A stretch of DNA of 64,000 bases from contig CAMTUG010000001.1 in NCBI GenBank assembly GCA_947084965.1, positions 409,301 to 473,300 of the forward strand, in the 5' to 3' direction. Each line of letters begins with the position of its first letter. The first letter of the stretch is position 1. Origin of the DNA: an uncultured Parcubacteria group bacterium. Lineage in GTDB: Bacteria; Patescibacteriota; Patescibacteriia; UBA9934; CAMTUG01. A program made the translations under genes and the position numbers. This document shows, piece by piece, positions 3,423-55,480 of this stretch. Under the pieces are notes generated by a model. That model was not told the origin of the DNA, did no database searches, and worked only from the letters and a program-made list of their open reading frames with translations.

Positions 3423-3481
3423 AAGATTTAAGGTACAACCATATTGAAAACCATTCACTTGTCGGGTAAGATGCCTGCATT

Positions 3482-5338: not shown

Positions 5339-5378
5339 CACAATTAAGCCGTTTCGTTAAGATACCGGCGCATTTCAC

Positions 5379-5606: not shown

Positions 5607-5612
5607 CACAGT

Positions 5613-5726
5613 ATGAAAGTTCGATCCTCTGTCAAAAAAATTTGTCGCGATTGCAAAGTGCTCCGTCGCAAGGGGCGCGTCTGTGTTGTGTGCAAAACCG
5701 TGAAGCATAAACAGCGTCAAGGATAA
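5613..5726 (+). CDS. rpmJ: 50S ribosomal protein L36
   Basis: A 37-aa ORF not in the supplied track (below its 60-aa cutoff): [37 protein letters not shown], a zinc-ribbon L36. It sits at the canonical infA-rpmJ-rpsM position. Confidence 0.85.
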
Positions 5727-5727
5727 T

Positions 5728-8231: not shown

Positions 8232-8232
8232 T

Positions 8233-8586: not shown

Positions 8587-8587
8587 T

Positions 8588-8995
8588 ATGGCAGAGGCAA
8601 ATTTCACCGGTAAATATACTGAAGCGGTCGGACGCCGCAAGCGCGCCATTGCTCGTGTTCGGATGTACCCAGGCAAAGGCCAGATCATCATCAACGAACG
8701 TGCGATGGAAGCATTTTTTGGTACCGCCAAGCTGCGCGAAACCGTTCGCCAGGCCCTGAAGACCGTCGGTCGTCCAGAATCCTTCGACATCTCGATCTAC
8801 GTCGTCGGTGGGGGAACCACGGGCCAGGCCGAAGCGATTCGCATGGGTATCGCCCGCTGTCTCTTGAAGGAGGACGCGGACATCAAGACCACGCTCAAGA
8901 AAGATGGACTGTTGACCCGCGACTCACGTCGCCGTGAACGCAAGAAGCCAGGGAAGCTGTCAGCACGTCGTTCGCCACAGTGGTCGAAACGTTAA
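8588..8995 (+). CDS. rpsI: 30S ribosomal protein S9
   Basis: ...GKGQIIINERAMEAFFG...YVVGGGTTGQAEAIRMGIARCLL... with the basic C-terminal tail ...RRSPQWSKR. Confidence 0.9.
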   Translation: MAEANFTGKYTEAVGRRKRAIARVRMYPGKGQIIINERAMEAFFGTAKLRETVRQALKTVGRPESFDISIYVVGGGTTGQAEAIRMGIARCLLKEDADIKTTLKKDGLLTRDSRRRERKKPGKLSARRSPQWSKR

Positions 8996-9007
8996 GCATC
9001 GATTACA

Positions 9008-10498
9008 ATGGGAGAGCTCGAAAGGGCTCTCCTTTCGGTTATGTCCACCATTGCCAAGAACACCATGCTCCTGACGCTCGCGTCGGTCGGCCAAAAGGCG
9101 ATCGCCTTTGTTTATTTTACGCTGATCGCCAACGCAATCGGCAAGGAAGCGACAGGCGATTACTTCCTCGCGCTTTCAATTACCACGATCTTTTCCGTTG
9201 TTGCCGACTGGGGTTTGACTCCGGTCTTGATCCGCGAAATCGCCAAACGACCAGGTGAAGCAGGGAAGATCCTGCGTTCAATCATGGCGCTCAAGATCCC
9301 GTTGATTCTGCTCGGTGCGGCTGGATCGATCGGTGCAGCGATGTTACTCGGTTACTCTGTCTCCGTCGTACAACTCGTTGCGGTCGCCAGTTTAGTTATG
9401 GCCGCGGATGCGATCTCGTTAACCTGTTTTGGTGTTCTGCGCGGCTTGCACAATCTGCGCTACGAATCGCTTGGAATCTTTGTTGGTCAGTCCGTCACCA
9501 CGCTCATCGGTCTTTTCTTCCTTTTTACAAATCCGTCGCTGACTCTTCTCATTATCGCTCTCCTTGCCGGAAGCACCTGGAACGCCATCTACTCCGCATC
9601 ACGTGTTGGTAAACACATTGGAGTTAAAGCACTCGTCCCATCGTTCGCTGGAGCAGAAGCAAAAAAGTGGCTCAAGCTCTCCGTGGCTTTTGTTCTCGCT
9701 GGCGCCTTTGTCAAAGTCTACTCGTACGTCGATTCGCTGATTCTGCATTCGATTCTCGGTTCCGGTGCCGTTGGGGCCTATTCCGTCGCTTATAAAATCA
9801 CCTACGCCTTTCAATTCCTCCCGATGGCATTCGTTGGTGCCTTGTACCCGCTCATGTCCACCCTTTGGGGGGAGGGGAAGAAGGCGGAGCTCGCTAAGCT
9901 CTTCGGCGACGCCATGTGGTACGTGATGCTCCTCGCCGCCCCAATCGTGTTTGGGATCTGGAGCATTGCCGATAAATTGATCCCTGCTTTTTATCCAAAC
10001 GGTTACGAAGAGTCCGTTCTTCCGCTACAGATCCTCGTTTTTGCCCTCCTCCTGCTCTTCGCCGATTTTCCGATCGGATCGCTTTTGAACGCTGCGGGCA
10101 AACAAGGGGTAAAAACAGCGATCATGGGTGGAACAATGGTCATCAATGCCGTTGCTAACATTATTTTGATCCCGCGCATTGGTCTCGAGGGGGCAGCCAT
10201 TTCGGCGGTCATCGGCGACACCTTCCTCCTGTTTGCCGGCTTGGCCATGGTTCCTCGCCTTATTGACACTTCGATGACGGGACTACTGGGCCGTATCGGT
10301 CCTATTCTCGCTAGCGGACTCCTGATGGCCGGAAGCGTGATTCTCCTCAAGCCATACCTCCATTTTGTGTTGTTGATTGGCGTTGGTGCTATCGTGTACA
10401 CGACCGTGCTCATTGCAACCAAAGCCTTAACGATTGAACACCTGCGCACGGCGTATAGAACGATGCGCGGCGGTGCTCCGGCATCTGAACCTGTATGA
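9008..10498 (+). CDS. Polysaccharide biosynthesis flippase, Wzx-like (MOP/PST family)
   Basis: 496-aa multi-TM protein. Its N-terminus NTMLLTLASVGQKAIAFVYFTLIANAIGKEATGDYFLALSITTIFSVVADWGL is typical of PST-family O-unit flippases. Confidence 0.65.
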   Translation: MGELERALLSVMSTIAKNTMLLTLASVGQKAIAFVYFTLIANAIGKEATGDYFLALSITTIFSVVADWGLTPVLIREIAKRPGEAGKILRSIMALKIPLILLGAAGSIGAAMLLGYSVSVVQLVAVASLVMAADAISLTCFGVLRGLHNLRYESLGIFVGQSVTTLIGLFFLFTNPSLTLLIIALLAGSTWNAIYSASRVGKHIGVKALVPSFAGAEAKKWLKLSVAFVLAGAFVKVYSYVDSLILHSILGSGAVGAYSVAYKITYAFQFLPMAFVGALYPLMSTLWGEGKKAELAKLFGDAMWYVMLLAAPIVFGIWSIADKLIPAFYPNGYEESVLPLQILVFALLLLFADFPIGSLLNAAGKQGVKTAIMGGTMVINAVANIILIPRIGLEGAAISAVIGDTFLLFAGLAMVPRLIDTSMTGLLGRIGPILASGLLMAGSVILLKPYLHFVLLIGVGAIVYTTVLIATKALTIEHLRTAYRTMRGGAPASEPV

Positions 10499-28358: not shown

Positions 28359-29513
28359 TTATGTAACGATCCGCGGGATCAGCGGATGGATGCGCGTCGT
28401 TACTTCATAGGCAATTGTTCCCGTGCGGTCTGCGATATCCTCAGCGCGCATCCGATTCTTACTTGAACGGCCGATCAAAACAACTTCGTCTTCAATCATG
28501 ATTTTCGGAATTTCGGTGACGTCGACGATGATCATGTTCATGCAGACCCGGCCTAAAACTCGACACAGCTGTCCGCGAATAATAACTTCACCGACCGAGC
28601 TGAGGCGACGATCGTAGCCATCATAGTACCCCACCGGAATGATAGCGACTTTTGAGTGGCGTCGCAGCACTTCGGAGCAACCAAAACCGATCGGCGTGCC
28701 CATAGGGGCATCTTTTATTTGGGCCACCCGCGTTTTCCAGGACATCACCGGTTCTAATTCAATACGACGATTGAGCAATCTCGCCGCGTGCCGCGCTTGG
28801 CGGGAGGGCCAAAAGCCGTAGGTTGAAACTCCTGGTCGCACGAGTGTTCCATGCGTTTGTGGGTACAAGATGACGGCTGCAGAGCAGGCCAAGTGAATCC
28901 ACGGCGGATGAAAGCCTTCGTCCCTTAGAATGTTGCAGGCGAGCCAAAACCGTTCGGTCTGATATTCGGCAAAGGCCTGACTCTCGGCTTCATCCACATT
29001 GGCATAATGTGTAGAAACTCCGACCAACTCAACGTTACGCAAGGGGGCGATCATCTGCGCGATCGCCGCCACCTGTTCAGGCCAGATCCCCTGCCGCATC
29101 GTTCCGGTTTCAATCTTCAAGTGAAGCTTGGCCGTCCGCCCCGCCTTTGCAGCGACGTCGTTTAACATCTGAATTGTTTCCGGATCATACACCGTCTGTT
29201 GCGCTTCAATCTCCACAACATCGGCCAGGCGATCATGCAAGGTGTAACCAAGAATAATGATCGTCGCTGAGGGGGCAAGCGCGCGCACCAGGATCGCCTC
29301 ATCAATACTGTCTACACAAAAAACGGCCACGCCATCATCACGCATGATCGGGACAATCTGACTGAGGCCGTGTCCGTAGGCATTGGATTTCACCACCCCG
29401 GCGTAGGTTACCCCTTCAGACAACAAAGAACGAAGCGCCGCGATGTTGGATCGAAGCGCTTGCGCGTTAATTTCTACCCACGTTTTCGCCCCTTGCATAC
29501 GTTCATTTGACAA
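28359..29513 (-). CDS. alr: Alanine racemase
   Basis: ...GVVKSNAYGHGL... is the PLP-lysine motif; the C-terminal domain is conserved. Confidence 0.85.
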   Translation of the reverse strand: MSNERMQGAKTWVEINAQALRSNIAALRSLLSEGVTYAGVVKSNAYGHGLSQIVPIMRDDGVAVFCVDSIDEAILVRALAPSATIIILGYTLHDRLADVVEIEAQQTVYDPETIQMLNDVAAKAGRTAKLHLKIETGTMRQGIWPEQVAAIAQMIAPLRNVELVGVSTHYANVDEAESQAFAEYQTERFWLACNILRDEGFHPPWIHLACSAAVILYPQTHGTLVRPGVSTYGFWPSRQARHAARLLNRRIELEPVMSWKTRVAQIKDAPMGTPIGFGCSEVLRRHSKVAIIPVGYYDGYDRRLSSVGEVIIRGQLCRVLGRVCMNMIIVDVTEIPKIMIEDEVVLIGRSSKNRMRAEDIADRTGTIAYEVTTRIHPLIPRIVT

Positions 29514-30774
29514 CCGTTCTGCCGCCCATGAATGGACGGAGCACTTCAGGAATCATCACGCTCCCGTCTTCTTGCTGATAGTTTTCCAAAATGGCAACAA
29601 GCGTGCGTCCAGCAAACGCCGTGGCGTCGTTCATGTGCACCAGTTGATTCTTGCCGTCAATCTTCACCTTCGTATTTAATCGCCGTGCCTGATAATCGCT
29701 CATGTAATCCGCCGAGTGCGTCTCGCGGTACTTCCCTTCCCCGGGCATCCACGTTTCGATATCGATATGACGCGCGTCAGGATCCCCCTGATCACCGGTG
29801 CAAGTCATCACCACTTGATACGCAAGTCCGAGCTGCTGATTTATATGCTCTTCGATCGCCACAAAAAAATCTTGCTCGGCAATCCCCTGCTCGGCGGTAG
29901 TGAACGACTCCATCTCTAATTTTTGGAATTGATGCAGGCGCAATAATCCGTGCGTATCTTTGCCATAGGAACCCGCTTCTCGACGGAAGGCCGGCGTAAA
30001 CGCGGCATAGCGTCGGGGGAGATCTTCTGCCTTGAACGTTTCGTCCATGTGGAGCGGCCCGAGGGTGTGTTCAGCAGAGCCGATCAAATAAAGGTCGTCA
30101 GACGGGATGTGATAACGCTCGTCCGTTGGATGCAACCGGGCCATCTTTTCAAAAACGTCCGGCTTGATCATCATCGGCGGCATAACAGGGATAAAGGCTG
30201 TTGGCTGCACGTCGAGCCCGGCCTTTTCGGCAATGGACTTCAGTGCGAGCTCATCGGTCAGAATAGAGAGGACGTACTGCACCATCGCCTGCTCGAGCAA
30301 TACGAGCCCCCCGAGCATATAAGCAAAGCGAGCGCCGGACACGTTTGAAGCCGCCTCTTTGTTGACAATGCCAAGTTTTACCCCGAGTGTTTCGTGATCA
30401 AGAGGCTTAAAGGAAAATTCCGGGCGCGTGCCCCACTGACGTAAAACAACGTTTGCCGATTCATCTTTTCCAACCGGAGTGTCATCGCTCGGCAGATTGG
30501 GGACTTTCCAAAGAAGGTCTTTCAGCGTCTCTTCAAGGACTGCCAGCTCCGGCTCTAGAAGTGCTGACTCAACTTTAAGTGCCTTCCCCTGTTCAATATT
30601 CTTCTCTTTTGCCGCTTCGTTGCGCAGACGATTTAACTCATCAAGCTTGCCCTGTACTTCGCGCTTGCGGCTGTCTAACCGCAAGATTTCGTCGATATCG
30701 ACGCTGCTGTTCTTGCTCTTGCAAGCGGCTTTAACGCGATCGGTCTGTTCGCGAATGATGGTAATGTCAATCAT
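29503..30774 (-). CDS. serS: Serine--tRNA ligase
   Basis: N-terminal coiled-coil arm, then class II motifs ...FRREAGSYGKDTHGLLRLHQFQKLE... The start MIDITII is at 30774; the track ORF is extended upstream. Confidence 0.9.
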   Translation of the reverse strand: MIDITIIREQTDRVKAACKSKNSSVDIDEILRLDSRKREVQGKLDELNRLRNEAAKEKNIEQGKALKVESALLEPELAVLEETLKDLLWKVPNLPSDDTPVGKDESANVVLRQWGTRPEFSFKPLDHETLGVKLGIVNKEAASNVSGARFAYMLGGLVLLEQAMVQYVLSILTDELALKSIAEKAGLDVQPTAFIPVMPPMMIKPDVFEKMARLHPTDERYHIPSDDLYLIGSAEHTLGPLHMDETFKAEDLPRRYAAFTPAFRREAGSYGKDTHGLLRLHQFQKLEMESFTTAEQGIAEQDFFVAIEEHINQQLGLAYQVVMTCTGDQGDPDARHIDIETWMPGEGKYRETHSADYMSDYQARRLNTKVKIDGKNQLVHMNDATAFAGRTLVAILENYQQEDGSVMIPEVLRPFMGGRTVVK

Positions 30775-31214: not shown

Positions 31215-33197
31215 CTATTCTGCCGCATCCACTTCCTCTGGTGATTCAGCGATCAGGTAATCAGCAAGATTCATGCGGATCGAATCGGTCAGACTCCCGG
31301 CATTGAAGAAGATCTCTTCGTTTTCTTTAAGCCGTTGATCCATGTGCGTGACGAGGCCGAGCACGGACCCGAATGGAGGAACAGATCCCGGAACGCAGGA
31401 GGTCACCTCAATCACCTCTTCTGGAGAGGCAAAACTGAAGCGTTCACCGATGATCTTCCCGACTTTTTTCTGATCAAGTTTGCAATCGTCCGGTAAAACG
31501 AAATGGTAAAACTTCCCCGTTTTCTTTCCTTTGACAATGATCGCTTTCGCCCCTTGATGGTGCGGACGCTTCGCTGGATCAAACCCAAGCGCTTCGTCCG
31601 AATCCTCCGGGCGCGAACCGTGATGCTTGGTGATATAGGCGATTTTTTTCTCTTCCAACCGCTGTTTAATCGCCCCAAAAACATCGTCGGTTTTCTCGCG
31701 TTTCATGGACACAGATTCGTCGACAGGTGCTTCTGGCTTAAGCGTCGGAAAGAGAATAACCTCCTTAATGCTGTGATTGCCTGAGAGAATAGCGCAAAGA
31801 CGATCGATACCCATGCCATAACCAGCTGCCGGTGGCATACCGATCTTCAGCGCTTCGATGTAGTCATGATCAACACGATGCGCATCTTCGCTCCCCTGCT
31901 CGCGGAACGCTTCCTGTTCTTCGAACCGTTCAAGCTGTTCGAGTGGATCGTTTAATTCGCTCCAACCATTAATCACTTCCATCCCCTTCACCAGGAGCTG
32001 AACGTTCTCGGCCTTTTCTGGATCATCTTTCGAACGCTTGGCGAGCGGCTTCATCGCTGACGGATATTCAAAAACAAAGGTCGGTTGAATGATATTCACA
32101 CGGACACGTTTTTTCCAAACCTCATCGCAGAGCTCGCCGAATCCAACAATCCCCTCTTCGTTAATCTGACAACGCTTCATCTCTGCACGCAATGCTTCTT
32201 CTGTATTCGCCACTGAAAGATTAATTCCTGTATCTTTTAGAACAAGATCATAAAAGGAAGCACGAGCGATCTTTGAGAAATCGAGCAGATCTTCGCCGTG
32301 GGTAATTTGCATTGCTCCACCAGTTGCTGCTTTGACACAAGCCATCAACAATCCTTCCAGATGATCGATCATTTGATCACGATCAGTGTATGCCGAGTAA
32401 CACTCGACTTGAGTGAATTCCGGATTGTGCTGAAAGCTGATTCCTTCGTTGCGGAAACAACGTGCAAGTTCAAAAACCTTTTCAAATCCTCCGACCATGC
32501 AGCGCTTTAAATACAGCTCAGGAGCAATACGCAAGTAAAGATCGGCATCGAGGGCATTATGATGGGTCACAAACGGACGCGCCTCCGCACCACCAGCAAG
32601 CGGCTGAAGAATCGGCGTTTCAACTTCCATGAACCCTTCGTCATGCAAAAATGTACGGACCGCATGCACAACACGCGAACGCATTTTAAAAACTTCGCGC
32701 ACCGTCGGGTTGCTGGCCATATCGAGATAGCGCTTTCGATAGCGCACCTCGGTGTCCGACAAGCCGTGCCACTTTTCTGGTAGGGGTAACAATGTTTTGG
32801 TTAATAGGCGGACTTCGGAAACCAAAACGGTCGGCTCCTCCGTTTTCGTCAGATAAGCGACCCCGCGCACTTCTATAAAATCCCCATGATCGAAATGATC
32901 ATGGAAAAATTGATAACGTTCTTCACCGATGTCATCCCGTTTGAGGGCGATCTGCGTGCCACCGAAATCGTCTTCCAGCGAAACAAAGGTCATCCCACCA
33001 TGTTTACGCACAGCGAGCATGCGTCCAACGAGCGTCAACGGCTGCTGAGAATCGACAAGATCACGAAAAACGGCATTGAATTGCGCTGTTGTGTGCGTGC
33101 GCACTGCTGACGTCGGGTAAGGATTGATTCCTTTGGCCCGCAGGTCTGCAAGCCGCGCCCGTCGTGCGCCTTCTTCTTCGATCATATTATTCAACAC
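31215..33197 (-). CDS. lysS: Lysine--tRNA ligase (class II) fused to a C-terminal YbaK/ProX-like deacylase domain
   Basis: The LysRS core (...FRNEGISFQHNPEFTQVECY...GMGIDRLCAIL...ILFPTLKP) is followed by a ~185-aa extension ...KAIIVKGKKTGKFYHFVLPDDCKLDQKKVGKIIG...SCVPGSVPPFGSVLGLV...FFNAGSLTDSI that matches the YbaK pattern (LDLKK..G...GGISPLG...SGG.RG). Confidence 0.85.
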   Translation of the reverse strand: MLNNMIEEEGARRARLADLRAKGINPYPTSAVRTHTTAQFNAVFRDLVDSQQPLTLVGRMLAVRKHGGMTFVSLEDDFGGTQIALKRDDIGEERYQFFHDHFDHGDFIEVRGVAYLTKTEEPTVLVSEVRLLTKTLLPLPEKWHGLSDTEVRYRKRYLDMASNPTVREVFKMRSRVVHAVRTFLHDEGFMEVETPILQPLAGGAEARPFVTHHNALDADLYLRIAPELYLKRCMVGGFEKVFELARCFRNEGISFQHNPEFTQVECYSAYTDRDQMIDHLEGLLMACVKAATGGAMQITHGEDLLDFSKIARASFYDLVLKDTGINLSVANTEEALRAEMKRCQINEEGIVGFGELCDEVWKKRVRVNIIQPTFVFEYPSAMKPLAKRSKDDPEKAENVQLLVKGMEVINGWSELNDPLEQLERFEEQEAFREQGSEDAHRVDHDYIEALKIGMPPAAGYGMGIDRLCAILSGNHSIKEVILFPTLKPEAPVDESVSMKREKTDDVFGAIKQRLEEKKIAYITKHHGSRPEDSDEALGFDPAKRPHHQGAKAIIVKGKKTGKFYHFVLPDDCKLDQKKVGKIIGERFSFASPEEVIEVTSCVPGSVPPFGSVLGLVTHMDQRLKENEEIFFNAGSLTDSIRMNLADYLIAESPEEVDAAE

Positions 33198-33645
33198 TCA
33201 AAATCTTGTAACTCATCTTACCAGACGGGACGGTTACCTCAACGGTGTCGCCTGCCTCCTTACCAACAAACGATACGCCGATCGGCGATTCATTGCTGAT
33301 CTTCCCCGCGAGCGGATCGGCCTCCGTCGCACCGACCATCTGAAACGTTTTCTCCACGCCGCCGACCTTCACCTGAAAGGTGCTCCCGAGGTTAATCTTT
33401 CCTCCGGATTTTTTCACAACAACGCTGGCGTTGCGAATCATATCTTCCAGATCAAGAATGCGTGACTCATTCTGTGCCTGATCGTCCTTGGCAACATGAT
33501 ATTCAAAATTCTCGGAAAGATCGCCGAGTTCCTTGGCGGAAGCGATGCGCGAAGTGATCTCCAGCCGATTGACCGTCTTGCGCATGGCGAGCTCATCTTT
33601 GAGCTGCTGCAGACCTTCTTCTGAAACGTACGTCACTTGACTCAT
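33187..33645 (-). CDS. greA: Transcription elongation factor GreA
   Basis: MSQVTYVSEEGLQQLKDELAMRKTVNRLEITSRIASAKELGDLSENFEYHVAKDDQA... The track ORF is extended upstream of the real start. Confidence 0.85.
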   Translation of the reverse strand: MSQVTYVSEEGLQQLKDELAMRKTVNRLEITSRIASAKELGDLSENFEYHVAKDDQAQNESRILDLEDMIRNASVVVKKSGGKINLGSTFQVKVGGVEKTFQMVGATEADPLAGKISNESPIGVSFVGKEAGDTVEVTVPSGKMSYKILSVE

Positions 33646-33679
33646 AAAACCTATGCTTTGAACAGAAGAGACCAGCCCA

Positions 33680-35737
33680 TCAGACGGGCCGGTCAGCATC
33701 ATTAGATCCATCGTAATTCGCTGGAAGATTCGCGTCAAGTGGATTCTCCACAGGGGTGGGGGTGGGTGCAGGTGGCGGTGAAGCGATCTCAAATTGTGTA
33801 AACCACCAAGCCAGAATCTCCTGGGCAATCGGAACAGCGACAGCATCACCGGCCCCACCCTCTTCTATCAATACGGTGATCACCACCTGCGGATCCTCAA
33901 ATGGCGCGAACCCGGTAAACCAGGCGTGGGTTTTGTAGAGGCTTGACCACTGGGCGGTACCGGTCTTCCCCGCCGACGTCACCGGCAGAGAGAGCAATCT
34001 ACGAGCACTACCTGAAGTAACGGCTTGGCGCATCCCGTCGCGCACAATCGCAATTGTCTGAGCATCGACGACCTGTTCGCTCTGAACGATCGGCTCGGCC
34101 AGAGCCTCCCCCGCCTCACTTTCGAGAGCGTGCATCACCCGCGGCTGGTAGAGCGTTCCCCCGTTTGCCACCGTCGATGTCATGGAAGCGATCTGCAGAG
34201 GGGTAACGAGCAAATCTCCTTGACCGATGGAAACGTTGTACGTGTCCCCGATATACCAACGCTCGCCCTTCGCCTCTTCCTTCCACACCTTACTTGGTAA
34301 AAACCCACTCGCTTCATTTGGCAGATCAACCCCAAGAACCGTTCCGAATCCGAACCGAGCCGCGTACGTCATGATCCGCTCAACACCGAGTCCAACAAAT
34401 CCGTCATAGCCGCCACCGATGTAGTAAAAAAAGGTATTAATGGATTCGGCCAGAGCACGCGTCACATTTGTTATCCCATGACCGCCTAGGTTCCAATCAT
34501 AAAAACTCCAAATTCCAACATGGATCGAGCCGGTTGAGAGAAAGCTTGTGGAGCGATTGATCAACCCCTCGGCAAGGGCAGCCGCGGCTACGACTGGCTT
34601 AAACGTAGAGCCCGAAGGAAACTGACCTGAGATCGCGCGATTAAAAAGGGGGCGATTCACATCTTCAAGAAGGGCGGTGTACGTTTTCTGATCAATCCCC
34701 TCCGCAAATTTATTGCTATCGAAGGCCGGCGTTGAGACGAGGGATAAGATCTCTCCCGTGGTCGGGTCCATCATGACGACCGCCGCCCGAGCCGATGTTC
34801 CCAAATGCCCCTCGAGCACCTGTTCAATCTTAGCGGTCAGTGTGGCGTCAATGGACAAGATGACGTTTTGGCCATCGATCGGGTCTTCTTTGGTGATGAT
34901 CGCAGCAGCACGCCCGAGCGCGTCCACTTCCACAATCTTGCGTCCGTACGTCCCACGCAAAACAGACTCATAGGATTCCTCCACCCCAAGCTTGCCGATA
35001 TTATCGATCATCCGATATCCGCTTTCGTCCAGCCGATCGTATTCTTCGGCGCTGATCCGCCCTGTGTAGCCGAGAACGTGTGAGAGCGTTGGAATCTCAT
35101 CCGTCTTATACGTGCGAATTGTTGCCGATTCCACTTGCACCCCAGGAAAGCGATCCATTTGTGTCATGAGCGAAAGGGCTGCGTCGTACGAAAGCGCTTC
35201 ATTTAGTACAACCGGATCTTTTTCGTTGGCAGCACTTCCGAGAATGGAGAGCATCTGCGGGACAGGTGTACCGGTCACTTCAGCCAGTTCCTCCAAAAAA
35301 GCCACACGCTGATCGATCACTTTTGGAATCGTGGCCGGCGTCGCCACCAGCCGAAAGGTCGAAGCGTTTTCCGCGAGCGGAGTGCGATTGCGGTCGTAAA
35401 TAATCCCCCGCTTTGAGGGGATCATTTCAATTCGCACGCGATTGCCTTCCGCCTCGGTGCGAAACTCATCCCCAAGGACGACTTGTAAATGAGCGGCCTT
35501 GGCCAAAAATAATCCAAATACCGTTGTTAAAACGATCGCGCCGATACGCAAACGGCGATCGGAAAGGGTCACCCCAATAAATTGGCGCGTCGGAGGATCA
35601 TCGCGCAGACGTGCCGACTCGGCTAATGATTCGTCAAAAAAAGAACCGGCCGCATATTCGCGCACCACCCCAAGCGTCGGATCATCTCCGAGCAAAAAAA
35701 CGGCGCTCTCCGGTTTTTTTCGACGAAAGAAGTTCAT
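33680..35737 (-). CDS. mrdA: Penicillin-binding protein 2 (peptidoglycan D,D-transpeptidase)
   Basis: Motifs STFKP, SGS and KTGTA. It lies immediately downstream of mreBCD. Confidence 0.8.
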   Translation of the reverse strand: MNFFRRKKPESAVFLLGDDPTLGVVREYAAGSFFDESLAESARLRDDPPTRQFIGVTLSDRRLRIGAIVLTTVFGLFLAKAAHLQVVLGDEFRTEAEGNRVRIEMIPSKRGIIYDRNRTPLAENASTFRLVATPATIPKVIDQRVAFLEELAEVTGTPVPQMLSILGSAANEKDPVVLNEALSYDAALSLMTQMDRFPGVQVESATIRTYKTDEIPTLSHVLGYTGRISAEEYDRLDESGYRMIDNIGKLGVEESYESVLRGTYGRKIVEVDALGRAAAIITKEDPIDGQNVILSIDATLTAKIEQVLEGHLGTSARAAVVMMDPTTGEILSLVSTPAFDSNKFAEGIDQKTYTALLEDVNRPLFNRAISGQFPSGSTFKPVVAAAALAEGLINRSTSFLSTGSIHVGIWSFYDWNLGGHGITNVTRALAESINTFFYYIGGGYDGFVGLGVERIMTYAARFGFGTVLGVDLPNEASGFLPSKVWKEEAKGERWYIGDTYNVSIGQGDLLVTPLQIASMTSTVANGGTLYQPRVMHALESEAGEALAEPIVQSEQVVDAQTIAIVRDGMRQAVTSGSARRLLSLPVTSAGKTGTAQWSSLYKTHAWFTGFAPFEDPQVVITVLIEEGGAGDAVAVPIAQEILAWWFTQFEIASPPPAPTPTPVENPLDANLPANYDGSNDADRPV

Positions 35738-47511: not shown

Positions 47512-48057
47512 TTAGGTCATTTTGCGCACGACCTCTTCAGCTAACGAATGCGACTTTTTTTCGTTGATCTCATCACCGATGATCTTTTTGGTCGCCGAAA
47601 GAGCGATCTCAATCAGATCCTTGCGTGCTTCACGGATCATTGCTTCACGCTCCGCAACAAGCTGTGTCTTCCCTTGCGAGATAACACGTTCCACTTCGCG
47701 CTTGGTCTTTTCGACCATTTCGACTTTGCGTTCTTCGGCCACGGCCATAGCGTCGTCGATCACTTTTTGCGCCTGTGCCTTGGCGTCACGAAGCATCTCT
47801 TCCTGCTCCGTTTCCACACGACTCATGCGCGCTTCGATCTCTTCAGCGCTCTTCACGCTCTGCGCGATCTTCTTTTCGCGCTCTTCGAGTAAACGCACGA
47901 TCGGCTTGTAGGCCCATTTCCAGAGCACCAAAAGGACGATCGTGAAGTTCACGAGCTGAGCGACGAAAATCTTTGCATTGATTCCCAAGGCGGCGATGCC
48001 ACCCGTGGCTTCAACAGCTTCGGCTGTTCCTTGAATTGCTTCTGCTTCCACGGACAT
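47512..48057 (-). CDS. atpF: ATP synthase B subunit
   Basis: N-terminal TM helix then a long charged coiled coil; operon position. Confidence 0.75.
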   Translation of the reverse strand: MSVEAEAIQGTAEAVEATGGIAALGINAKIFVAQLVNFTIVLLVLWKWAYKPIVRLLEEREKKIAQSVKSAEEIEARMSRVETEQEEMLRDAKAQAQKVIDDAMAVAEERKVEMVEKTKREVERVISQGKTQLVAEREAMIREARKDLIEIALSATKKIIGDEINEKKSHSLAEEVVRKMT

Positions 48058-48068
48058 AGCCCGTTAGA

Positions 48069-48293
<225 letters not shown>

Positions 48294-48302
48294 TTAGATA
48301 TT

Positions 48303-48360
48303 AGTAAGTAGTAAGTGGTAATTGGAGACAGCTGTCTCTACTTACCGCTTACCAATTACC
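48303..48360. repeat. Hairpin repeat, GTAAGYGG/GAGACAC family (R4)
   Basis: AGTAAGTAGTAAGTGGTAATTGGAGACAGCTGTCTCTACTTACCGCTTACCAATTACC in the atpB-atpE intergenic region. Confidence 0.6.
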
Positions 48361-48364
48361 AATT

Positions 48365-49195
48365 TCAATGCGCGTGCGCCATCTTTGCTTCATGATTCCC
48401 CTCCTCGTGCTCCTCTCCGTGTGCTTCGGTAGCAACGGTCAGATATGCGAGCGTGAGCATCGCAAAGACCGTCGCTTGAATCACCGCGACGAGAAGTTCG
48501 AGGAAGATGAATGGCAGAGGGAGGAAGTAGGCGAAGATTCCGAGAACGATCGTAATCAACACTTCGCCGGCAAAGATATTTCCAAAGAGACGCAAGGAGA
48601 GCGAAAGGACTTTGGCAATTTCTGAAACAATTTCGATCAACCCAACACCAAATTCAATGATCGCCACAATGACCGCCATTGGCCCTTTCGGAATCGCTTT
48701 GAAGATTCCGCGGATGTTGACGAATTTGGAAAGATGGGCGATCGGGCCAAGCTTTACTAATCCAAAGAGGTGCGAAGCGAGAACGGCCACCGCGGCGATC
48801 GCAAGCGTCATGTTCAGGTCGCTCGTTGCGGGACGCAGGAGCGGGATAAGGGCCATCTCACCATGGATGACTTCGCGGACCCCAATCGATCCCGTGCCCG
48901 GCATCTGGCCAAGCAAATTGGAGACGAGCACGAATAAGAAGATCGTTCCAACGATCGGCAAGAACTTTTTGGCGCGCTCGCGATCTTCCGTCACCTTTTG
49001 TGATTCCGTGAGCATGAATTCCACGATCGCTTCGAAGATATTGTGAATCCCTTTTGGCACGAGCCCCACGCGACGGCGGGCAATCGCCGCGACGACAACA
49101 AAAAAGATCACAGCGATCCAGGCGTTCACCATGGAGTTTGTGATCGGCAATGCGGCGATATGAGCGATTGGTTCAGCGGCGAGGGATACGGACAT
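48365..49195 (-). CDS. atpB: ATP synthase a subunit
   Basis: ...LSLSLRLFGNIFAGEVL... carries the conserved Arg helix; polytopic. Confidence 0.9.
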   Translation of the reverse strand: MSVSLAAEPIAHIAALPITNSMVNAWIAVIFFVVVAAIARRRVGLVPKGIHNIFEAIVEFMLTESQKVTEDRERAKKFLPIVGTIFLFVLVSNLLGQMPGTGSIGVREVIHGEMALIPLLRPATSDLNMTLAIAAVAVLASHLFGLVKLGPIAHLSKFVNIRGIFKAIPKGPMAVIVAIIEFGVGLIEIVSEIAKVLSLSLRLFGNIFAGEVLITIVLGIFAYFLPLPFIFLELLVAVIQATVFAMLTLAYLTVATEAHGEEHEEGNHEAKMAHAH

Positions 49196-49497: not shown

Positions 49498-49542
49498 GGC
49501 AATTTGTCATTTTTGAAAGTCATTTATCCCCATAAATCGCGA

Positions 49543-49569
49543 AACCCACCTGAAGTGCTCAGGTGGGCT
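49543..49569 (-). terminator. Terminator hairpin of island B minus-strand gene, paralogous to 12252-12280
   Basis: AACCCACCTGA-agtgc-TCAGGTGGGCT. It has compensatory base changes relative to the island A hairpin (AG/CT versus TGA/TCA). The flanking sequence shares CGCGAA...TCGTG.G.G...GGAGTGCC..CTAC with island A. Confidence 0.5.
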
Positions 49570-49594
49570 CGACGTGGGTGAAGCAGGGAGTGCC

Positions 49595-50479
49595 CTACTT
49601 CGTCTGGGTGGTGGGGATCGGTTGCATCTCTGGGCCGGAGACGCCGCCGAACTTGGCGAAGCCGCAGCAGCCGCAGAACAGGACGAGGAGGAACCCGACG
49701 ATGATGATCAGCGGCAAGTTGCCCGCGATCGCGCCGCTGATGGTCGGCTGGGTCGGGGTGCCGGTGGCGCTCGTCGCCTTCCCTGCTTCCTCGCGACCCT
49801 TCTTGGCGGCGTCCTTCCGCTTCTTGCGCTCCTCCGCGCGTTCGTCCCGCGCGGCCTGCTGATCGGCCGTCGGGTTGGCCCAACGGTCCCGGGCCCGAGC
49901 GACGGCGGCGTCCTGGCGAGCACGCGCCGCGGCAGCTTCCGCCGCACGCGCGACCTCGGCTTCGTGGGCCGCGGCGGCCGCCTTGGCTTCGGCGGCCTTG
50001 CGATCGTCCTCGGCCTTCTTCGCGGCGGCGCCAGGGTCGACGGGCTTCACGGTCTCGGCCGGCGTCTCGGGCGCGCCAGCCTTCTTCGCGGCAAGGGCAG
50101 CGGCTGCTGCGGCTCCGGCTGCGCCAGCGGCGACCTCCTCGTCGAGGTCCGGGATGCCGTCCCCGTCTTCTTCGACGACCGCCTCCTCGGGCTCCTCCTC
50201 TTCCTCGCTCGGCTTCTCGGCCTTGACGCCGGTCAGCTTCTCGAGGATCGGGTGGACGACCTCGGCCATGGCGCCGATCACGCTGCCCAGCGTGCCGGCC
50301 TCCTTGGCGTCGAGGAGCTCGGTGAGGAGCTTCTGCGAGGGCTCGTCGAGCACGTCGGCCATTTCGTCGGCCTTGACGGCGTCCGCGGTCCAGGCGGCGC
50401 TGAGGTCCGACCACTCCTGGTCGGTGAGCTCCTCGCCATCCAGACACTTCTTCAACAGGGCCTTGATCTTCGGGTCCAT
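49595..50479 (-). CDS. High-GC tail-anchored membrane protein of unknown function (294 aa)
   Basis: ATG at 50479 (MDPKIKALLKKCLDGEELTDQEW...) with a GGAG RBS. It has an acidic linker (EEEEEPEE), an Ala-rich helix (AEAKAAAAAHEAEVARAAEAAAARARQDAAVARARD), a single C-terminal TM (LPLIIIVGFLLVLFCGCCGF) and a short tail. The track start at 50635 is upstream of the promoter. Confidence 0.55.
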   Translation of the reverse strand: MDPKIKALLKKCLDGEELTDQEWSDLSAAWTADAVKADEMADVLDEPSQKLLTELLDAKEAGTLGSVIGAMAEVVHPILEKLTGVKAEKPSEEEEEPEEAVVEEDGDGIPDLDEEVAAGAAGAAAAAALAAKKAGAPETPAETVKPVDPGAAAKKAEDDRKAAEAKAAAAAHEAEVARAAEAAAARARQDAAVARARDRWANPTADQQAARDERAEERKKRKDAAKKGREEAGKATSATGTPTQPTISGAIAGNLPLIIIVGFLLVLFCGCCGFAKFGGVSGPEMQPIPTTQTK

Positions 50480-50564
50480 TCGGTACTCCGTGGGTGGGGG
50501 TAGATGTCCTGACTGCGGGATCCTTGACGCCTGAAGCGTCGGAACGGGAGAAATCCAGCCGCCA

Positions 50565-50593
50565 AATATAGCATAAAAAACCGATTTTGTCAA
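50565..50593 (-). promoter_or_regulatory. Sigma70-like promoter for island B minus gene (TTGACA-17-TATATT)
   Basis: The minus strand reads TTGACAaaatcggttttttatgcTATATT; the leader of about 85 nt contains the hairpin GACGCttcagGCGTC. Confidence 0.45.
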
Positions 50594-50657
50594 TCCAGCC
50601 CAACAATAAGGGCAAAAAGCGAAAAAGAGGCACAAATAAAGCCAAAATCTTATCTAG

Positions 50658-50693
50658 GCAGACTTGACAAAATCAAAAAAGTCTGCTATTTTA
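50658..50693 (+). promoter_or_regulatory. Sigma70-like promoter for island B plus gene (TTGACA-16-TATTTT), with -35 inside an 8-bp inverted repeat GCAGACTT-N13-AAGTCTGC
   Basis: gGCAGACTTGACAAAATCAAAAAAGTCTGCTATTTTAcaagg; leader of about 120 nt with a GGAG RBS. Confidence 0.5.
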
Positions 50694-50812
50694 CAAGGCT
50701 GTGCAGGACCCTAAAAGAGAGGGCTGGCAGTGGTTTTCCCCGACAGCGGGGCTGATCGAGAGAGAAAGGACACAACACCCAAACGGCGGCCAACCCGCCA
50801 ACGGAGCACACC

Positions 50813-52408
50813 ATGGCGACCCTCGCCGAACAGCTCGCCGCGCAAGCGGCCAACGCCAGCAAGAAGAACGACAAGGGCAACAAGAAGGGCGGTCTCGCGG
50901 CGCAGGCCGCGGCCGGCAACAAGCCCGACGCCAAGGCGCAGCAGGAGGCCCGGGCGGCGGCGTTCGCCGACGCGCAGAACGACCTGGCCGCCGACGCGGT
51001 GATGAAGATCGGGGAGCTCGCCCAGGGCAACCGCCGCGCCCAGGCGGACCTGATCTCCCGCATCGTCCGCAACGGAGAGAAGCTCGCCATCTTCGAGGTC
51101 AGCCCCCGGCAGGAGGAGGGACGGCACGGCGAGGGCCTCAAGTGGGTCGGCGACACCACGATCGACGGCGTCGGGGAGACGGTCGGCTTCACCAGCCACA
51201 TCATCCTCTTCGACCTGGTCGCCGGGAAGAAGGTGTGGTGCTGCCTCGTGCAGGACAAGAAGCGCAAGGACAGCTACAGCGCCTTCCCCCTCGGCCTCTG
51301 CGAGGTGTCCCTCATCAACAACTGGAACGGGAACCGTTCGAAGGAGGACCCGACCATCACCGTCATCACCGGCTCGATCCGCGACGCCCACCGCAGCGTC
51401 AAGCTGACGGTCCGCGAGATCGTCGAGCTGCGTGGGCGGGGCGGGGGTCAGCACCTCGCCTGGCTCAAGGGCTTCCGCCTGGTGAAGCACGAGCGGTGCC
51501 AGCCCTTCGCGCTCAACGTCAAGTCCGTGTTCAAGATCGAGCTGGGCGAGCGCGGCGCCACCCTCCGGTTCGTCTCCACGGCCGAGGCCTTCCAGGGCTT
51601 CGATCACAAGGCGATCGCGATCGGCGGGGCCTCGAGCAAGCCGGTCGATCCGCTCGCGGCGGTCGGCAAGGTGACGATCGAGGAGGTCAACCCGGACATC
51701 GTCCACGGGCTGATCAACAAGCTGAAGGGAGAGAAGAAGACGGACGAGCACCCCACCGTGAAGGCGATGAAGGCGGCCGGGCGCAAGGTGTCGGACGACA
51801 TGGCCGGGCGCGAGGGCCCCATCAACTCGGTCCTGGAGAAGGAGGTCAAGCCGGCGCTCCTCGAGGCGCTGGACGTGGAGATCGAGAAGCGCGAGAAGCT
51901 CCTCGGCGACCTCCCCACCCTGCGCGTGTTCCTGGGGCTCACCACCTCGGACGACATGCGCAGCACCCACCGCAACATCAGCAACCGGCGCGACGCGCCG
52001 AAGGAGGGCAAGGACTCGCCCGCCGAGTTCATCGCCGAGAAGACCAAGATCCCGTTCACCTGGTCCCTCTTCGGCCGCTACTTCCGGGCCGGACTCCTCG
52101 CCAAGATCGCCCAGGCGGAGGAGAGCCACGATCTGGCCGTCAAGATCGTGGTGCTCGAGAAGGAGGTCGAGGTCAACGCCGAGGACATGCTCGGGTGGCC
52201 CGACTGGACCAAGGAAGGGATCGCCGCCCGACTCGAGGCGATCGAGAAGGGCGACGTGCGCGGGGCCGTCTGGGTGGTGAACCAGGCGCTCCGGCAGCAC
52301 AAGGTGGAGATCGACCTCGGCAAGGAGGGCCACCTCGACATCGTGAAGGCTGCGGTGAAGACCGTCGCCGACGCGGTGATCGCCAAGATCACGCCCGCCG
52401 CCAGCTAG
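50813..52408 (+). CDS. High-GC 531-aa soluble protein of unknown function
   Basis: ATG at 50813. The N-terminal ~60 aa are A/Q/K-rich low complexity (MATLAEQLAAQAANASKKNDKGNKKGGLAAQAAAGNKPDAKAQQEARAAAF...). No P-loop, HTH or catalytic motif is recognised by eye. Strong GC3 bias. Confidence 0.6.
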   Translation: MATLAEQLAAQAANASKKNDKGNKKGGLAAQAAAGNKPDAKAQQEARAAAFADAQNDLAADAVMKIGELAQGNRRAQADLISRIVRNGEKLAIFEVSPRQEEGRHGEGLKWVGDTTIDGVGETVGFTSHIILFDLVAGKKVWCCLVQDKKRKDSYSAFPLGLCEVSLINNWNGNRSKEDPTITVITGSIRDAHRSVKLTVREIVELRGRGGGQHLAWLKGFRLVKHERCQPFALNVKSVFKIELGERGATLRFVSTAEAFQGFDHKAIAIGGASSKPVDPLAAVGKVTIEEVNPDIVHGLINKLKGEKKTDEHPTVKAMKAAGRKVSDDMAGREGPINSVLEKEVKPALLEALDVEIEKREKLLGDLPTLRVFLGLTTSDDMRSTHRNISNRRDAPKEGKDSPAEFIAEKTKIPFTWSLFGRYFRAGLLAKIAQAEESHDLAVKIVVLEKEVEVNAEDMLGWPDWTKEGIAARLEAIEKGDVRGAVWVVNQALRQHKVEIDLGKEGHLDIVKAAVKTVADAVIAKITPAAS

Positions 52409-52488
52409 AGGAAGCTGGACTTCAAGAGAAGGGCTAGAGGTAGCAGATGAATCAGTCTACCTCGCCCAACTCATCCTCACTCACGAGC

Positions 52489-55439: not shown

Positions 55440-55457
55440 ACGGTAGAAAGCGGAAAG

Positions 55458-55480
55458 CAGTAAGTGGTAAATTGAGACAC
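55458..55480. repeat. Half-copy of the GTAAGYGG/GAGACAC repeat (R5)
   Basis: CAGTAAGTGGTAAATTGAGACAC in the rsmI-metG intergenic region. Confidence 0.4.

What the first reader, a model, noticed from the sequence alone, without database searches (positions are those of the whole stretch)
31215..33197. Lysyl-tRNA synthetase carrying a C-terminal YbaK/ProX-like trans-editing domain
After the normal class II LysRS C-terminus (...ILFPTLKP) the ORF continues for about 185 aa. The pattern of the extension (KAIIVKGKKTGKFYHFVLPDDCKLDQKKVGKIIG...GSVPPFGSVLGLV...FFNAGSLTD) mirrors YbaK/ProX aminoacyl-tRNA deacylases (LDLKKVAKALG...GGISPLGQ...SGGKRG). A cis-fused editing module on LysRS is not part of the canonical enzyme. 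It may compensate for missing free-standing editing factors in a reduced genome.
Basis: partly seen in the sequence, partly recalled or inferred. Interest (0 to 1): 0.6.

Follow-up and report, generated by a model that had tools for sequence, protein, structure and literature searches.

The report
LysRS fused to YeaK-like editing domain
A Patescibacteria lysyl-tRNA synthetase really does carry a tethered, apparently active proofreading domain of the YeaK/ProXp-ST1 type; lysyl-tRNA synthetases have no such domain in the reviews I read or the solved structures I compared, and the fusion predicts that it removes wrong amino acids from tRNA-Lys.

Summary
One uninterrupted ORF on the minus strand (31215-33197, 660 aa; probable true start ATG 33185, 656 aa) encodes a bona fide class II LysRS (residues 1-488). 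A 17-residue flexible linker follows, then a 155-residue INS/YbaK-superfamily domain (Pfam tRNA_edit, E 6e-21).

The fusion is not an artefact. The same protein occurs in two public assemblies. Eight other fusions, only 45-70% identical in the LysRS part, keep the open frame, the catalytic Lys (K551) and the GXXXP loop (G604-P608).

The module is not YbaK or ProX proper. Among the families I could test, it is closest to E. coli YeaK (ProXp-ST1), a Ser/Thr-tRNA deacylase whose reported substrates include mischarged tRNA-Lys.

Its free-standing relatives sit in the hrcA-grpE-dnaK-dnaJ operon of Patescibacteria. One paralog ("type A") was moved to the 3' end of lysS. Fused and unfused LysRSs interleave on the tree, so the architecture is evolutionarily unstable.

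I found no description of this fusion in the literature. Best reading: a tethered post-transfer editing domain for LysRS errors (inferred, untested). I rate it a new variant of a known kind and moderately interesting.

The parts
31215..33197 (-). Whole fused ORF (660 aa from GTG 33197; probable real start ATG 33185 = 656 aa; stop TAG 31215-31217)
32802..33035 (-). LysRS N-terminal OB-fold anticodon-binding domain (residues 55-132)
   Evidence: Pfam PF01336, E 7e-11; AF2 pLDDT >95
31740..32753 (-). LysRS class II catalytic core (residues 149-486), with motif 2 FRNEG (248-252) and motif 3 GIDR (463-466) invariant in all fusions
   Evidence: Pfam PF00152, E 2e-87; NCBIfam lysS above cut-off; Foldseek to solved LysRS, TM 0.9; invariants in A3
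31683..31733 (-). Linker, residues 489-505 (EAPVDESVSMKREKTDD): predicted disordered, variable in sequence and length (15-23 aa) among fusions, never interrupted by a stop
   Evidence: pLDDT <50 for residues 493-499
31704..31706 (-). In-frame internal ATG (Met498) inside the linker; present only in this fusion; no SD-like motif upstream
31218..31682 (-). YeaK/ProXp-ST1-like INS-superfamily deacylase module (residues 506-660); the Pfam tRNA_edit match covers residues 543-647 (31257-31571)
31545..31547 (-). Codon of Lys551, the conserved catalytic lysine of the INS superfamily (motif GAKA)
   Evidence: invariant in 6 fusions; >=90% in 114 family members; aligns with the K of YeaK QGAKAL and YbaK YKTL
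31374..31388 (-). GXXXP substrate-binding loop, G604-S-V-P-P608
   Evidence: G and P invariant in family alignment A1 and fusion alignment A3
31557..31619 (-). Type-A-specific segment before the catalytic Lys (residues 527-547, GSRPEDSDEALGFDPAKRPHH), 8-9 residues longer than in type B paralogs and YeaK
   Evidence: alignment; sequences
33187..33699 (-). greA, the conserved upstream neighbour (context, not part of the fusion)
   Evidence: gene calls on L001-L005
30776..31213 (-). Downstream nucleotidyltransferase (CTP_transf_like). Its ATG lies 1 nt after the fusion's stop (TAG-T-ATG), the same spacing as after unfused lysS in relatives

Best explanation
The gene encodes the housekeeping class II lysyl-tRNA synthetase of a Patescibacteria (Uhrbacteria-like) bacterium. 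A YeaK/ProXp-ST1-like aminoacyl-tRNA deacylase has been permanently tethered to its C-terminus by a flexible 17-residue linker. Proposed mechanism: LysRS occasionally charges tRNA-Lys with near-cognate small amino acids (Thr, Ser or Ala). The tethered module, kept at high local concentration beside the acceptor end of the departing tRNA, hydrolyses these mischarged esters using Lys551 and the G604-P608 loop. Correct Lys-tRNA-Lys would be excluded by the pocket or protected by the synthetase. In effect this gives LysRS a post-transfer editing step that the canonical enzyme lacks. Shown here: the architecture, the fold, conservation of both catalytic centres, the YeaK-like affinity, recurrence in divergent genomes, and the origin from a free-standing dnaK-operon gene. 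Inferred, not shown: catalytic activity, amino-acid and tRNA specificity, and whether the module acts in cis on the same enzyme's product.
For: (1) A single ORF carries a full LysRS above the NCBIfam cut-offs plus a tRNA_edit domain. (2) AF2: both parts fold confidently (module pLDDT 94; full length 91), and only the linker is disordered. (3) The module has the YbaK/ProX fold (Foldseek TM 0.72-0.80). (4) The two features that define active INS-superfamily deacylases (PMC11286415), the conserved Lys and the GXXXP loop, are invariant in the six aligned fusions and conserved across 114 relatives. LysRS motifs 2 and 3 are invariant too. (5) The module family matches E. coli YeaK/ProXp-ST1 at hhalign 99.5%, E 1.3e-22, and BLASTP 42% identity over 114 aa, against 67%, E 5e-5 and 26% for YbaK. 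(6) Reviews state that ProXp-ST1/ST2 hydrolyse Ser/Thr-tRNAs including tRNA-Lys mischarged by LysRS (PMC11295145, PMC7373986, PMC11415595). LysRS mischarges tRNA-Lys with Thr, Ala and Ser and has only pre-transfer editing (PMC4173786, PMC7373986). (7) Nine distinct fusions from independent samples sit in the same greA-lysS-...-serS synteny. Their LysRS cores are only 45-70% identical, and their linkers vary but are never interrupted. That indicates purifying selection on the fused state. (8) The same INS-like family is repeatedly linked to class IIb synthetases: C-terminal AspRS fusions and an aspS-edit-asnS cluster.
Against: There is no biochemical evidence. Specificity cannot be read from sequence; INS members with similar pockets differ in substrate. 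Automated JGI annotation calls the free-standing relatives Ala-tRNA(Pro) deacylase. ProXp-ST2 and ProXp-7/8/9 could not be compared, so YeaK may not be the nearest family. The fusion is rare: six 90% clusters among 8000 scored LysRS candidates, plus three GTDB genomes. Close relatives manage without it (P0122 at 79% identity), so it is dispensable. The fused LysRS cores show no convergent active-site changes that would suggest relaxed specificity. In this genome alone, an internal Met498 could allow separate translation of the module.
Confidence: 0.55

Rival explanations
1. The module is an active but general trans-editing factor, as free YeaK-like proteins are, with broad tRNA range or an Ala-tRNA-Pro target. 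The fusion to LysRS would then only provide co-expression, stoichiometry or localisation near the translation machinery, not dedicated editing of tRNA-Lys.
For: ProXp-ST1 and YbaK lack strict tRNA specificity (PMC11295145, PMC11415595). The free-standing relatives lie in the dnaK operon, which suggests a general proteostasis role. The fusion is gained or lost without visible change in the LysRS core. JGI labels the relatives Ala-tRNA(Pro) deacylase.
Against: Fusion-bearing genomes already keep a free-standing paralog (type B) for general duty. Only the type A paralog is ever found fused, and always to LysRS at the same position. Tethering is known to restrict promiscuous INS-like deacylases (T. 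brucei MCP3; PMC11286415).
Confidence: 0.25
2. In this genome the fused ORF is translated both as a fusion and, from the internal Met498, as a separate protein of about 163 aa. The functional unit would then still be a free-standing factor, and the read-through product would be incidental.
For: The in-frame ATG at 31704-31706 lies just upstream of where free-standing homologues begin; the homologues are 158-165 aa, against 163 aa from Met498. Most genes in the window lack SD motifs anyway (7 of 47).
Against: None of the other eight fusions has a Met at the equivalent position. There is no stop codon and no SD-like motif upstream of the ATG. The unfused relatives have no such gene at this position.
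Confidence: 0.08
3. The module is no longer a hydrolase and serves as an extra tRNA-binding, dimerisation or scaffolding domain for LysRS.
For: Appended domains on synthetases often act in tRNA binding or complex assembly (PMC7373986; the plant ProXp-ala C-terminal domain, PMC9425024). Several linkers are Lys-rich.
Against: The catalytic Lys and the GXXXP loop are invariant in all fusions examined, as are most residues shared with YeaK. The module is more conserved than the LysRS core among fusions (55-81% vs 45-70%).
Confidence: 0.07
4. The fusion is an assembly or gene-calling artefact, or a very recent neutral loss of a stop codon.
For: The linker is short, and the module equals a whole free-standing gene in size. 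Raw reads were not inspected.
Against: The identical ORF occurs in two public assemblies. There are eight other fusions from different samples and three GTDB genomes. Relatives have no free-standing gene next to lysS from which read-through could arise. There are no homopolymers at the junction.
Confidence: 0.03

Closest known systems
E. coli YeaK (ProXp-ST1), a free-standing Ser/Thr-tRNA deacylase of the INS superfamily
   Same: Closest characterised relative I could test: hhalign 99.5%, E 1e-22; 42% identity over 114 aa. It shares the motifs QGAKA(L/I)V, TGCxxG(S/A)(V/I)PPF, FNAGxLxxS and DY(L/I)xxxxPExV. Its reported substrates include Ser/Thr-tRNA-Lys made by LysRS (PMC11295145).
   Different: YeaK is a single-domain protein acting in trans on many tRNAs. 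Here the domain is covalently tethered to LysRS and carries an 8-9-residue type-A insertion before the catalytic Lys. Activity is untested.
INS editing domain of bacterial ProRS
   Same: Same superfamily and fold, with the same catalytic Lys and GXXXP loop, and acting in cis within a class II synthetase.
   Different: INS is inserted between motifs 2 and 3 of a class IIa enzyme and edits Ala-tRNA-Pro. Here the domain is appended to the C-terminus of a class IIb enzyme. Sequence similarity is low (Foldseek 10-16% identity).
N-terminal ProXp-ala-ProRS fusions of Plasmodium and Trypanosoma, and T. brucei MCP3
   Same: An INS-like deacylase is joined to, or assembled with, a synthetase through a disordered linker, and tethering limits promiscuous deacylation (PMC11286415, PMC11295145).
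   Different: Those are eukaryotic, involve ProRS, belong to the ProXp-ala or ProXp-7 clusters and are N-terminal. This one is bacterial, involves LysRS, is YeaK-like and is C-terminal.
lpg1207 of Legionella pneumophila (PDB 3op6), uncharacterised
   Same: Best solved-structure relative by profile (E 6e-21, full length) and a top Foldseek hit.
   Different: It is free-standing and of unknown function; I found no paper citing the entry.
LysX (MprF-LysRS fusion) of mycobacteria
   Same: Another natural LysRS fusion protein (NCBIfam PRK02983; PMC5388404).
   Different: There the partner is N-terminal and uses Lys-tRNA-Lys for lipid lysinylation. It has no editing function, and the window protein scores below that model's cut-off (484 vs 742).

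Membership tests
Class II lysyl-tRNA synthetase (LysS) | Scores above the curated cut-offs of the lysS models | tested here: met
   NF001756 578 bits vs 468; TIGR00499 533 vs 428; residues 8-489
Class II lysyl-tRNA synthetase (LysS) | OB anticodon-binding domain plus class II core with motifs 2 and 3; LysRS fold | tested here: met
   Pfam; FRNEG and GIDR invariant; Foldseek TM 0.88-0.93 to solved LysRS, 38-42% identity
Class II lysyl-tRNA synthetase (LysS) | Occupies the housekeeping lysS locus | tested here: met
   greA-lysS-nucleotidyltransferase-serS-alr synteny is shared with unfused orthologues
INS (YbaK/ProX) superfamily of aminoacyl-tRNA deacylases | tRNA_edit (PF04073) domain and YbaK fold | tested here: met
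   E 6e-21; AF2 pLDDT 94 and Foldseek TM 0.72-0.80 to 2cx5, 3op6, 1dbu, 1wdv
INS (YbaK/ProX) superfamily of aminoacyl-tRNA deacylases | Strictly conserved catalytic lysine and GXXXP loop (PMC11286415) | tested here: met
   K551 and G604-S-V-P-P608 are invariant in the fusions and conserved in 114 relatives
INS (YbaK/ProX) superfamily of aminoacyl-tRNA deacylases | Hydrolysis of mischarged aminoacyl-tRNA | not testable with these tools
   Needs deacylation assays
ProXp-ST1 (YeaK) | Groups with E. coli YeaK rather than with other INS families | tested here: inconclusive
   Clearly closer to YeaK than to YbaK, ProXp-x or ProXp-ala. No sequences of ProXp-ST2, -7, -8 or -9 were available, and no similarity network was built.
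ProXp-ST1 (YeaK) | Single-domain, free-standing protein | tested here: not met
   Here it is fused to LysRS. Its nearest relatives in other genomes are free-standing.
ProXp-ST1 (YeaK) | Ser/Thr-tRNA deacylase with broad tRNA range | not testable with these tools
   Known only from the literature on YeaK (PMC11295145)
YbaK (Cys-tRNA-Pro deacylase) | Meets the YbaK_EbsC / PRK10670 equivalog models | tested here: not met
   38.5 bits vs cut-off 153; 14.5 vs 243; hhalign to E. coli YbaK only 67%, E 5e-5
[quoted passage not shown] | Groups with C. crescentus ProXp-ala (5VXB) | tested here: not met
   Profile E 5e-5, 26 bits, against 78 bits for 3op6. The JGI label on relatives is automated. tRNA-Pro recognition residues were not examined.
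ProXp-x (T. thermophilus TTHA1699, 2CX5) | Groups with 2CX5 | tested here: not met
   Top Foldseek fold match, but only 22% identity; profile E 7e-7, 33 bits

The most novel reading that the evidence does not exclude
This is the first natural class IIb synthetase with a genuine post-transfer editing domain. Type A YeaK-like modules would be dedicated proofreaders of LysRS errors (Thr/Ser/Ala-tRNA-Lys), acting in cis. The parallel AspRS fusions and the aspS-edit-asnS clusters would then mean that an uncharacterised branch of the INS superfamily is a general editing partner of class IIb synthetases (Lys, Asp, Asn), enzymes generally described as having no editing domain.
Probability: 0.35. Interest if true: 0.75.

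Novelty: new variant of a known kind. Interest (0 to 1): 0.6.

Why it matters
In the reviews I read, class II LysRS has only active-site pre-transfer editing and no post-transfer editing domain. A 2024 review also states that INS-superfamily members other than the ProRS insertion are single-domain proteins. A naturally fused LysRS-YeaK-like enzyme, conserved across divergent genomes, is evidence of the "Rosetta stone" kind that mischarging by LysRS matters in vivo. It also suggests that this branch of YeaK-like factors works on LysRS products. This gives a concrete, easily expressed protein in which cis against trans editing, tRNA-Lys specificity and protection of the cognate product can be measured. 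It also points to functions for the many uncharacterised YeaK-like genes in Patescibacteria chaperone operons and for the AspRS fusions. The caveats are that the architecture is rare, dispensable in close relatives, known only from uncultivated organisms, and built from well-known parts.

Tried and rejected
(1) The search with the C-terminal 185 aa listed only free-standing proteins, which at first suggested a unique or artefactual fusion. It failed to list even the 100% identical P0121, so the absence of fusions there was a limitation of the word-index search, not a finding.

(2) Simple read-through into a neighbouring gene: rejected. Unfused relatives have no YbaK-like gene after lysS.

(3) "Deletion scar" in the tails of unfused sister LysRSs. 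I first rejected this because acidic tails after KPE are common. I reopened it after the DNA comparison. The score test was suggestive but weak, so it remains unresolved.

(4) Convergent substitutions in fused LysRS cores that would indicate relaxed specificity: none convincing.

(5) tRNA genes or Rfam families in the window, looking for tRNA-Lys features: none found.

(6) The primary papers (Liu 2015 PNAS; Vargas-Rodriguez 2013 JBC) and Kuzmishin Nagy 2020 are not held, so family definitions come from reviews.

(7) The AFDB Foldseek library was unavailable. Model coordinates are not exposed, so the reach of the module to the active site could not be measured.

(8) A Shine-Dalgarno test for the internal Met was uninformative, because the genome rarely uses SD motifs.
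Full report
OBSERVATION. Pfam finds the OB anticodon-binding domain (residues 55-132), the class II D/K/N core (149-486, E 2e-87) and an aminoacyl-tRNA editing domain, PF04073 (543-647, E 6e-21, 75 bits against a cut-off of 25.5). NCBIfam places residues 8-489 in lysS above the curated cut-offs (578 vs 468 and 533 vs 428). The public gene call for the same protein (P0121, 656 aa) and the orthologues start at MIEEEG, so the real start is probably ATG 33185. I number residues from the 660-aa ORF.

The junction reads ...I481-L-F-P-T-L-K-P488 / E489-APVDESVS-M498-KREKTDD505 / V506-FGAIKQ... It has no stop, no frameshift and no homopolymer longer than 5. The extension after P488 is 172 aa.

IS IT REAL? 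Three lines of evidence say it is.

(i) The identical protein is called on two public contigs, one from NCBI (476,519 bp) and one from an independent Logan assembly of run ERR3478686 (22,983 bp).

(ii) A full-length search found five more LysRS+tRNA_edit proteins (P0124, P0127, P0128, P0130, P0134; 626-668 aa; 53-57% identical overall). A scan of GTDB species representatives found three more continuous fused ORFs (L009, L010, L011). LysRS cores among the nine are only 45-70% identical. The linkers differ in sequence and length (15-23 aa), but none contains a stop.

(iii) The fusions examined keep the same neighbourhood, PBP2-greA-lysS::edit-...-serS.

I could not inspect reads. A profile of the fusions retrieved only the same six clusters as full-length matches (1091-1216 bits) before dropping to unfused LysRS (824 bits or less) among 8000 candidates. 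The architecture is therefore real but rare. None of the six clusters carries a source name, and none is held by UniRef.

WHERE THE MODULE CAME FROM. The closest unfused LysRSs (P0122 at 79% and P0125 at 70% identity) have identical synteny and no YbaK-like gene after lysS. The nucleotidyltransferase gene follows 1 nt after the lysS stop, and the fused ORF has exactly the same TAG-T-ATG arrangement. So this is not read-through into a neighbouring gene.

The nearest free-standing relatives of the module (158-165 aa, 57-66% identical) lie elsewhere. They sit between dnaK and dnaJ in the hrcA-grpE-dnaK-dnaJ operon, and so do about 45 of the Patescibacteria loci returned from GTDB.

Neighbour-joining trees with 200 bootstraps define a "type A" clade with 98% support. 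It contains all nine fused modules plus free-standing dnaK-operon proteins. Eight fused modules form one subclade (74%; 96% for the five in the first analysis). P0134's module groups with free-standing P0015 (92-94%), which may be a second origin. The more common 152-aa "type B" paralog is never found fused. In L006 both types lie in tandem in the dnaK operon.

The three GTDB MAGs with a fusion also keep a second, free-standing copy in their dnaK operon (L017, L021, L035); L017 and L021 look type B by identity, while L035 is ambiguous. The simplest history is that the type A copy moved from the chaperone operon to the 3' end of lysS.

On the LysRS tree, fused and unfused enzymes interleave at the tips with strong support. 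Ours groups with unfused P0122/P0123 at 100%. L009 groups with unfused P0126 at 100%. P0127/P0130 group with unfused P0150/P0154 at 90%. Module identities among fusions (55-81%) exceed core identities (45-70%), and P0128 is a mosaic (N-domain 64%, catalytic core 47%, module 81% relative to ours). So the fusion has been lost repeatedly, spread by recombination, or both.

One lead favours loss. The unfused sister LysRSs all end "KPE + 6 residues", like the module's own "xPE + 6 residues". P0126 ends KPE-TTDAAE, and our module ends SPE-EVDAAE. Eighteen nucleotides around the stop are identical between the window and unfused L003. A score matrix built only from free-standing module ends ranks these LysRS tails 1, 2, 7, 20, 37 and 58 of 133. 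However, the scores are low and the six sequences are one clade. I leave this unresolved.

WHAT THE MODULE IS. AlphaFold2 with 114 homologues gives a confident model (pLDDT 94.3). It superposes on T. thermophilus ProX (2cx5/2z0k), lpg1207 (3op6), H. influenzae and E. coli YbaK, and APE2540 at TM 0.72-0.80, and more weakly on the ProRS INS domain. The full-length model (pLDDT 91) has two well-folded parts joined by a low-confidence linker, with residues 493-499 below 50. In the Foldseek PDB listing, alignments to solved LysRS structures stop at about 490-511 columns, so none of the matches shown covers the module.

The two features that define catalytically competent INS-superfamily members are a conserved lysine and the GXXXP loop (PMC11286415). 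Both are present: K551 and G604-S-V-P-P608. They are invariant in the six aligned fusions and conserved in the family (G and P invariant, K in at least 90%).

The subfamily assignment is as follows. The module fails the YbaK equivalog models. A family profile hits lpg1207 (3op6, uncharacterised) at E 6e-21, well ahead of Atu3699 (1e-8), ProXp-x 2cx5 (7e-7), YbaK (7e-7) and ProXp-ala 5vxb (5e-5). I then fetched E. coli yeaK (b1787, "mischarged aminoacyl-tRNA deacylase", ProXp-ST1) and ybaK for a like-for-like comparison.

- Family profile against YeaK: hhalign probability 99.5%, E 1.3e-22, 32% identity over 150 columns.
- Family profile against YbaK: probability 67%, E 5e-5, 22% identity.
- The window module against YeaK by BLASTP: 42% identity over 114 aa, 67 bits.
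- The window module against YbaK by BLASTP: 26% identity, 31 bits.

Type B, type A and the fused modules all behave this way (median 80, 63 and 60 bits to YeaK, about 30 to YbaK). They share the motifs QGAKA(L/I)V, TGCxxG(S/A)(V/I)PPF, FNAGxLxxS and DY(L/I)xxxxPExV. Type A adds 8-9 residues (…PEDSDEALGFDPAKRPHH…) just before the catalytic Lys.

So the module is YeaK/ProXp-ST1-like. I could not compare it with ProXp-ST2 or ProXp-7/8/9, for which I had no sequences, so membership in ProXp-ST1 proper is inconclusive.

HOW IT MOST LIKELY WORKS. Established knowledge from the papers I read:
- LysRS mischarges tRNA-Lys with Thr (the best non-cognate substrate for the E. coli enzyme), Ala (best for the pneumococcal enzyme) and Ser (PMC4173786).
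- ProXp-ST1/ST2 hydrolyse Ser- and Thr-tRNAs, including tRNA-Lys. INS-family factors "correct mistakes emanating from" LysRS, among others (PMC11295145, PMC11415595).

Putting a YeaK-like deacylase on a flexible 17-residue tether at the C-terminus of LysRS therefore most plausibly gives the enzyme a post-transfer editing step for Thr-, Ser- or Ala-tRNA-Lys. High local concentration would supply the tRNA selectivity that free YeaK- and YbaK-type factors lack. A similar logic is documented for YbaK with ProRS and for T. brucei MCP3 in the multi-synthetase complex.

The architecture, fold, conserved catalytic residues, family affinity and selective maintenance are shown here. Activity, substrate and cis action are inferred. 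I give this reading 0.55.

The rivals are:
- a general trans-editing factor merely co-expressed with LysRS (0.25);
- separate translation from Met498 in this genome only (0.08; no other fusion has that Met);
- a non-catalytic tRNA-binding role (0.07; argued against by the invariant catalytic residues);
- an artefact (0.03).

It is not supported by what I could see. The fused module is a relocated copy of a normally free-standing gene, and other fusion-bearing MAGs retain a second free-standing paralog. The window itself has no paralog, no dnaK operon, no tRNA genes and no Rfam hits. The rest of its genome was out of reach.

BROADER CONTEXT FOUND ON THE WAY. An exhaustive HMMER search with the module, followed by Pfam and NCBIfam scans, showed that AspRS also occurs with a C-terminal YeaK-like tRNA_edit domain.
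- P0405 and P0452 are bacterial-type AspRS without the GAD insertion.
- P0423 is the archaeal, non-discriminating type.
- P0394, P0391 and P0456 are fragments of bacterial-type AspRS; P0394 and P0391 retain the GAD domain.

In P0405's contig a second class IIb synthetase follows 1.2 kb downstream. A MAG labelled Nanoarchaeota has gatE-aspS(ND)-[151-aa module]-asnS with 3- and 9-nt spacers. This INS branch is thus repeatedly linked to class IIb synthetases.

NOVELTY. Searches of 8 million open papers and preprints found no description of a LysRS or AspRS fused to a YbaK/INS-type domain. [quoted passage not shown] The parts are well known and the combination is new, so I rate it a new variant of a known kind. 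Interest is 0.6. An aaRS specialist would find a class IIb synthetase with an appended editing domain noteworthy, and it makes LysRS proofreading directly testable. But it is rare, dispensable in close relatives, and unproven biochemically.

Noticed in passing
L006 1-7600; L007; L008; about 45 of L012-L072: In Patescibacteria the free-standing YeaK-like editing genes sit inside the heat-shock operon hrcA-grpE-dnaK-[tRNA_edit]-dnaJ. L006 has two in tandem (152 aa at 5030-5488, 160 aa at 5490-5972), plus a PF08915 tRNA-Thr_ED protein (1292-1705) between grpE and dnaK. Aminoacyl-tRNA proofreading appears to be co-regulated with chaperones.
   Followed up: partly
P0405 (L091 5001-6878), P0452, P0423 (L092 5001-6788), P0394, P0391, P0456: Aspartyl-tRNA synthetases (bacterial type with or without GAD, and archaeal non-discriminating type) carry a C-terminal YeaK-like tRNA_edit domain. 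In L091 a second class IIb synthetase (440 aa, 8128-9450) follows 1.2 kb downstream. I found no description of this in the literature.
   Followed up: partly
L053 1150-5776 (MAG labelled Nanoarchaeota); L061: Tight cluster gatE - aspS(ND) 2690-3994 - 151-aa tRNA_edit 3998-4453 - asnS 4463-5776, with 3- and 9-nt spacers. This is an unfused version of the class IIb synthetase/editing-module association.
   Followed up: partly
P0314, P0318, P0447, P0320: Other architectures of the same module family: three tRNA_edit domains in one 448-aa protein, two in a 303-aa protein, tRNA_edit fused to a GNAT acetyltransferase, and GmrSD_N fused to tRNA_edit.
   Followed up: no
P0128 and L010 compared with window 31215-33197: Mosaic LysRS. 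Relative to the window protein, P0128 is 64% identical in the anticodon-binding domain, only 47% in the catalytic core and 81% in the editing module. This suggests recombination within lysS or replacement of the core.
   Followed up: partly
window 31215-31250 vs L003 6450-6490 and L002 6450-6490: Unfused sister LysRSs end KPE + 6 aa, resembling the module's own xPE + 6 aa terminus (P0126 KPETTDAAE vs module SPEEVDAAE). Eighteen nucleotides around the stop are identical between the window and L003. This may be a scar of in-frame loss of the module; the statistical support is weak.
   Followed up: partly
window 49500-52450: GC-rich island (65.7% GC at 50-52 kb, against about 52% elsewhere) with long ORFs in several frames. 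The plausible genes are 49595-50635 (-), a 346-aa Ala/Glu/Lys-rich protein with a hydrophobic C-terminal segment, and 50813-52408 (+), 531 aa with no obvious family.
   Followed up: no
window 29503-30774 (-), 53940-55508 (-): The window holds two more synthetase genes: serS, two genes downstream of lysS in the same conserved cluster, and a MetRS-like ORF (KISKS motif). atpB/atpF-like ORFs lie at 47512-49195.
   Followed up: no
(tool behaviour): The word-index protein search with the 185-aa C-terminus did not return any fusion, not even the 100% identical P0121. Also, many GTDB records with typical Patescibacteria operons are titled 'uncultured Gammaproteobacteria bacterium', so those titles are unreliable for taxonomy.
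   Followed up: no
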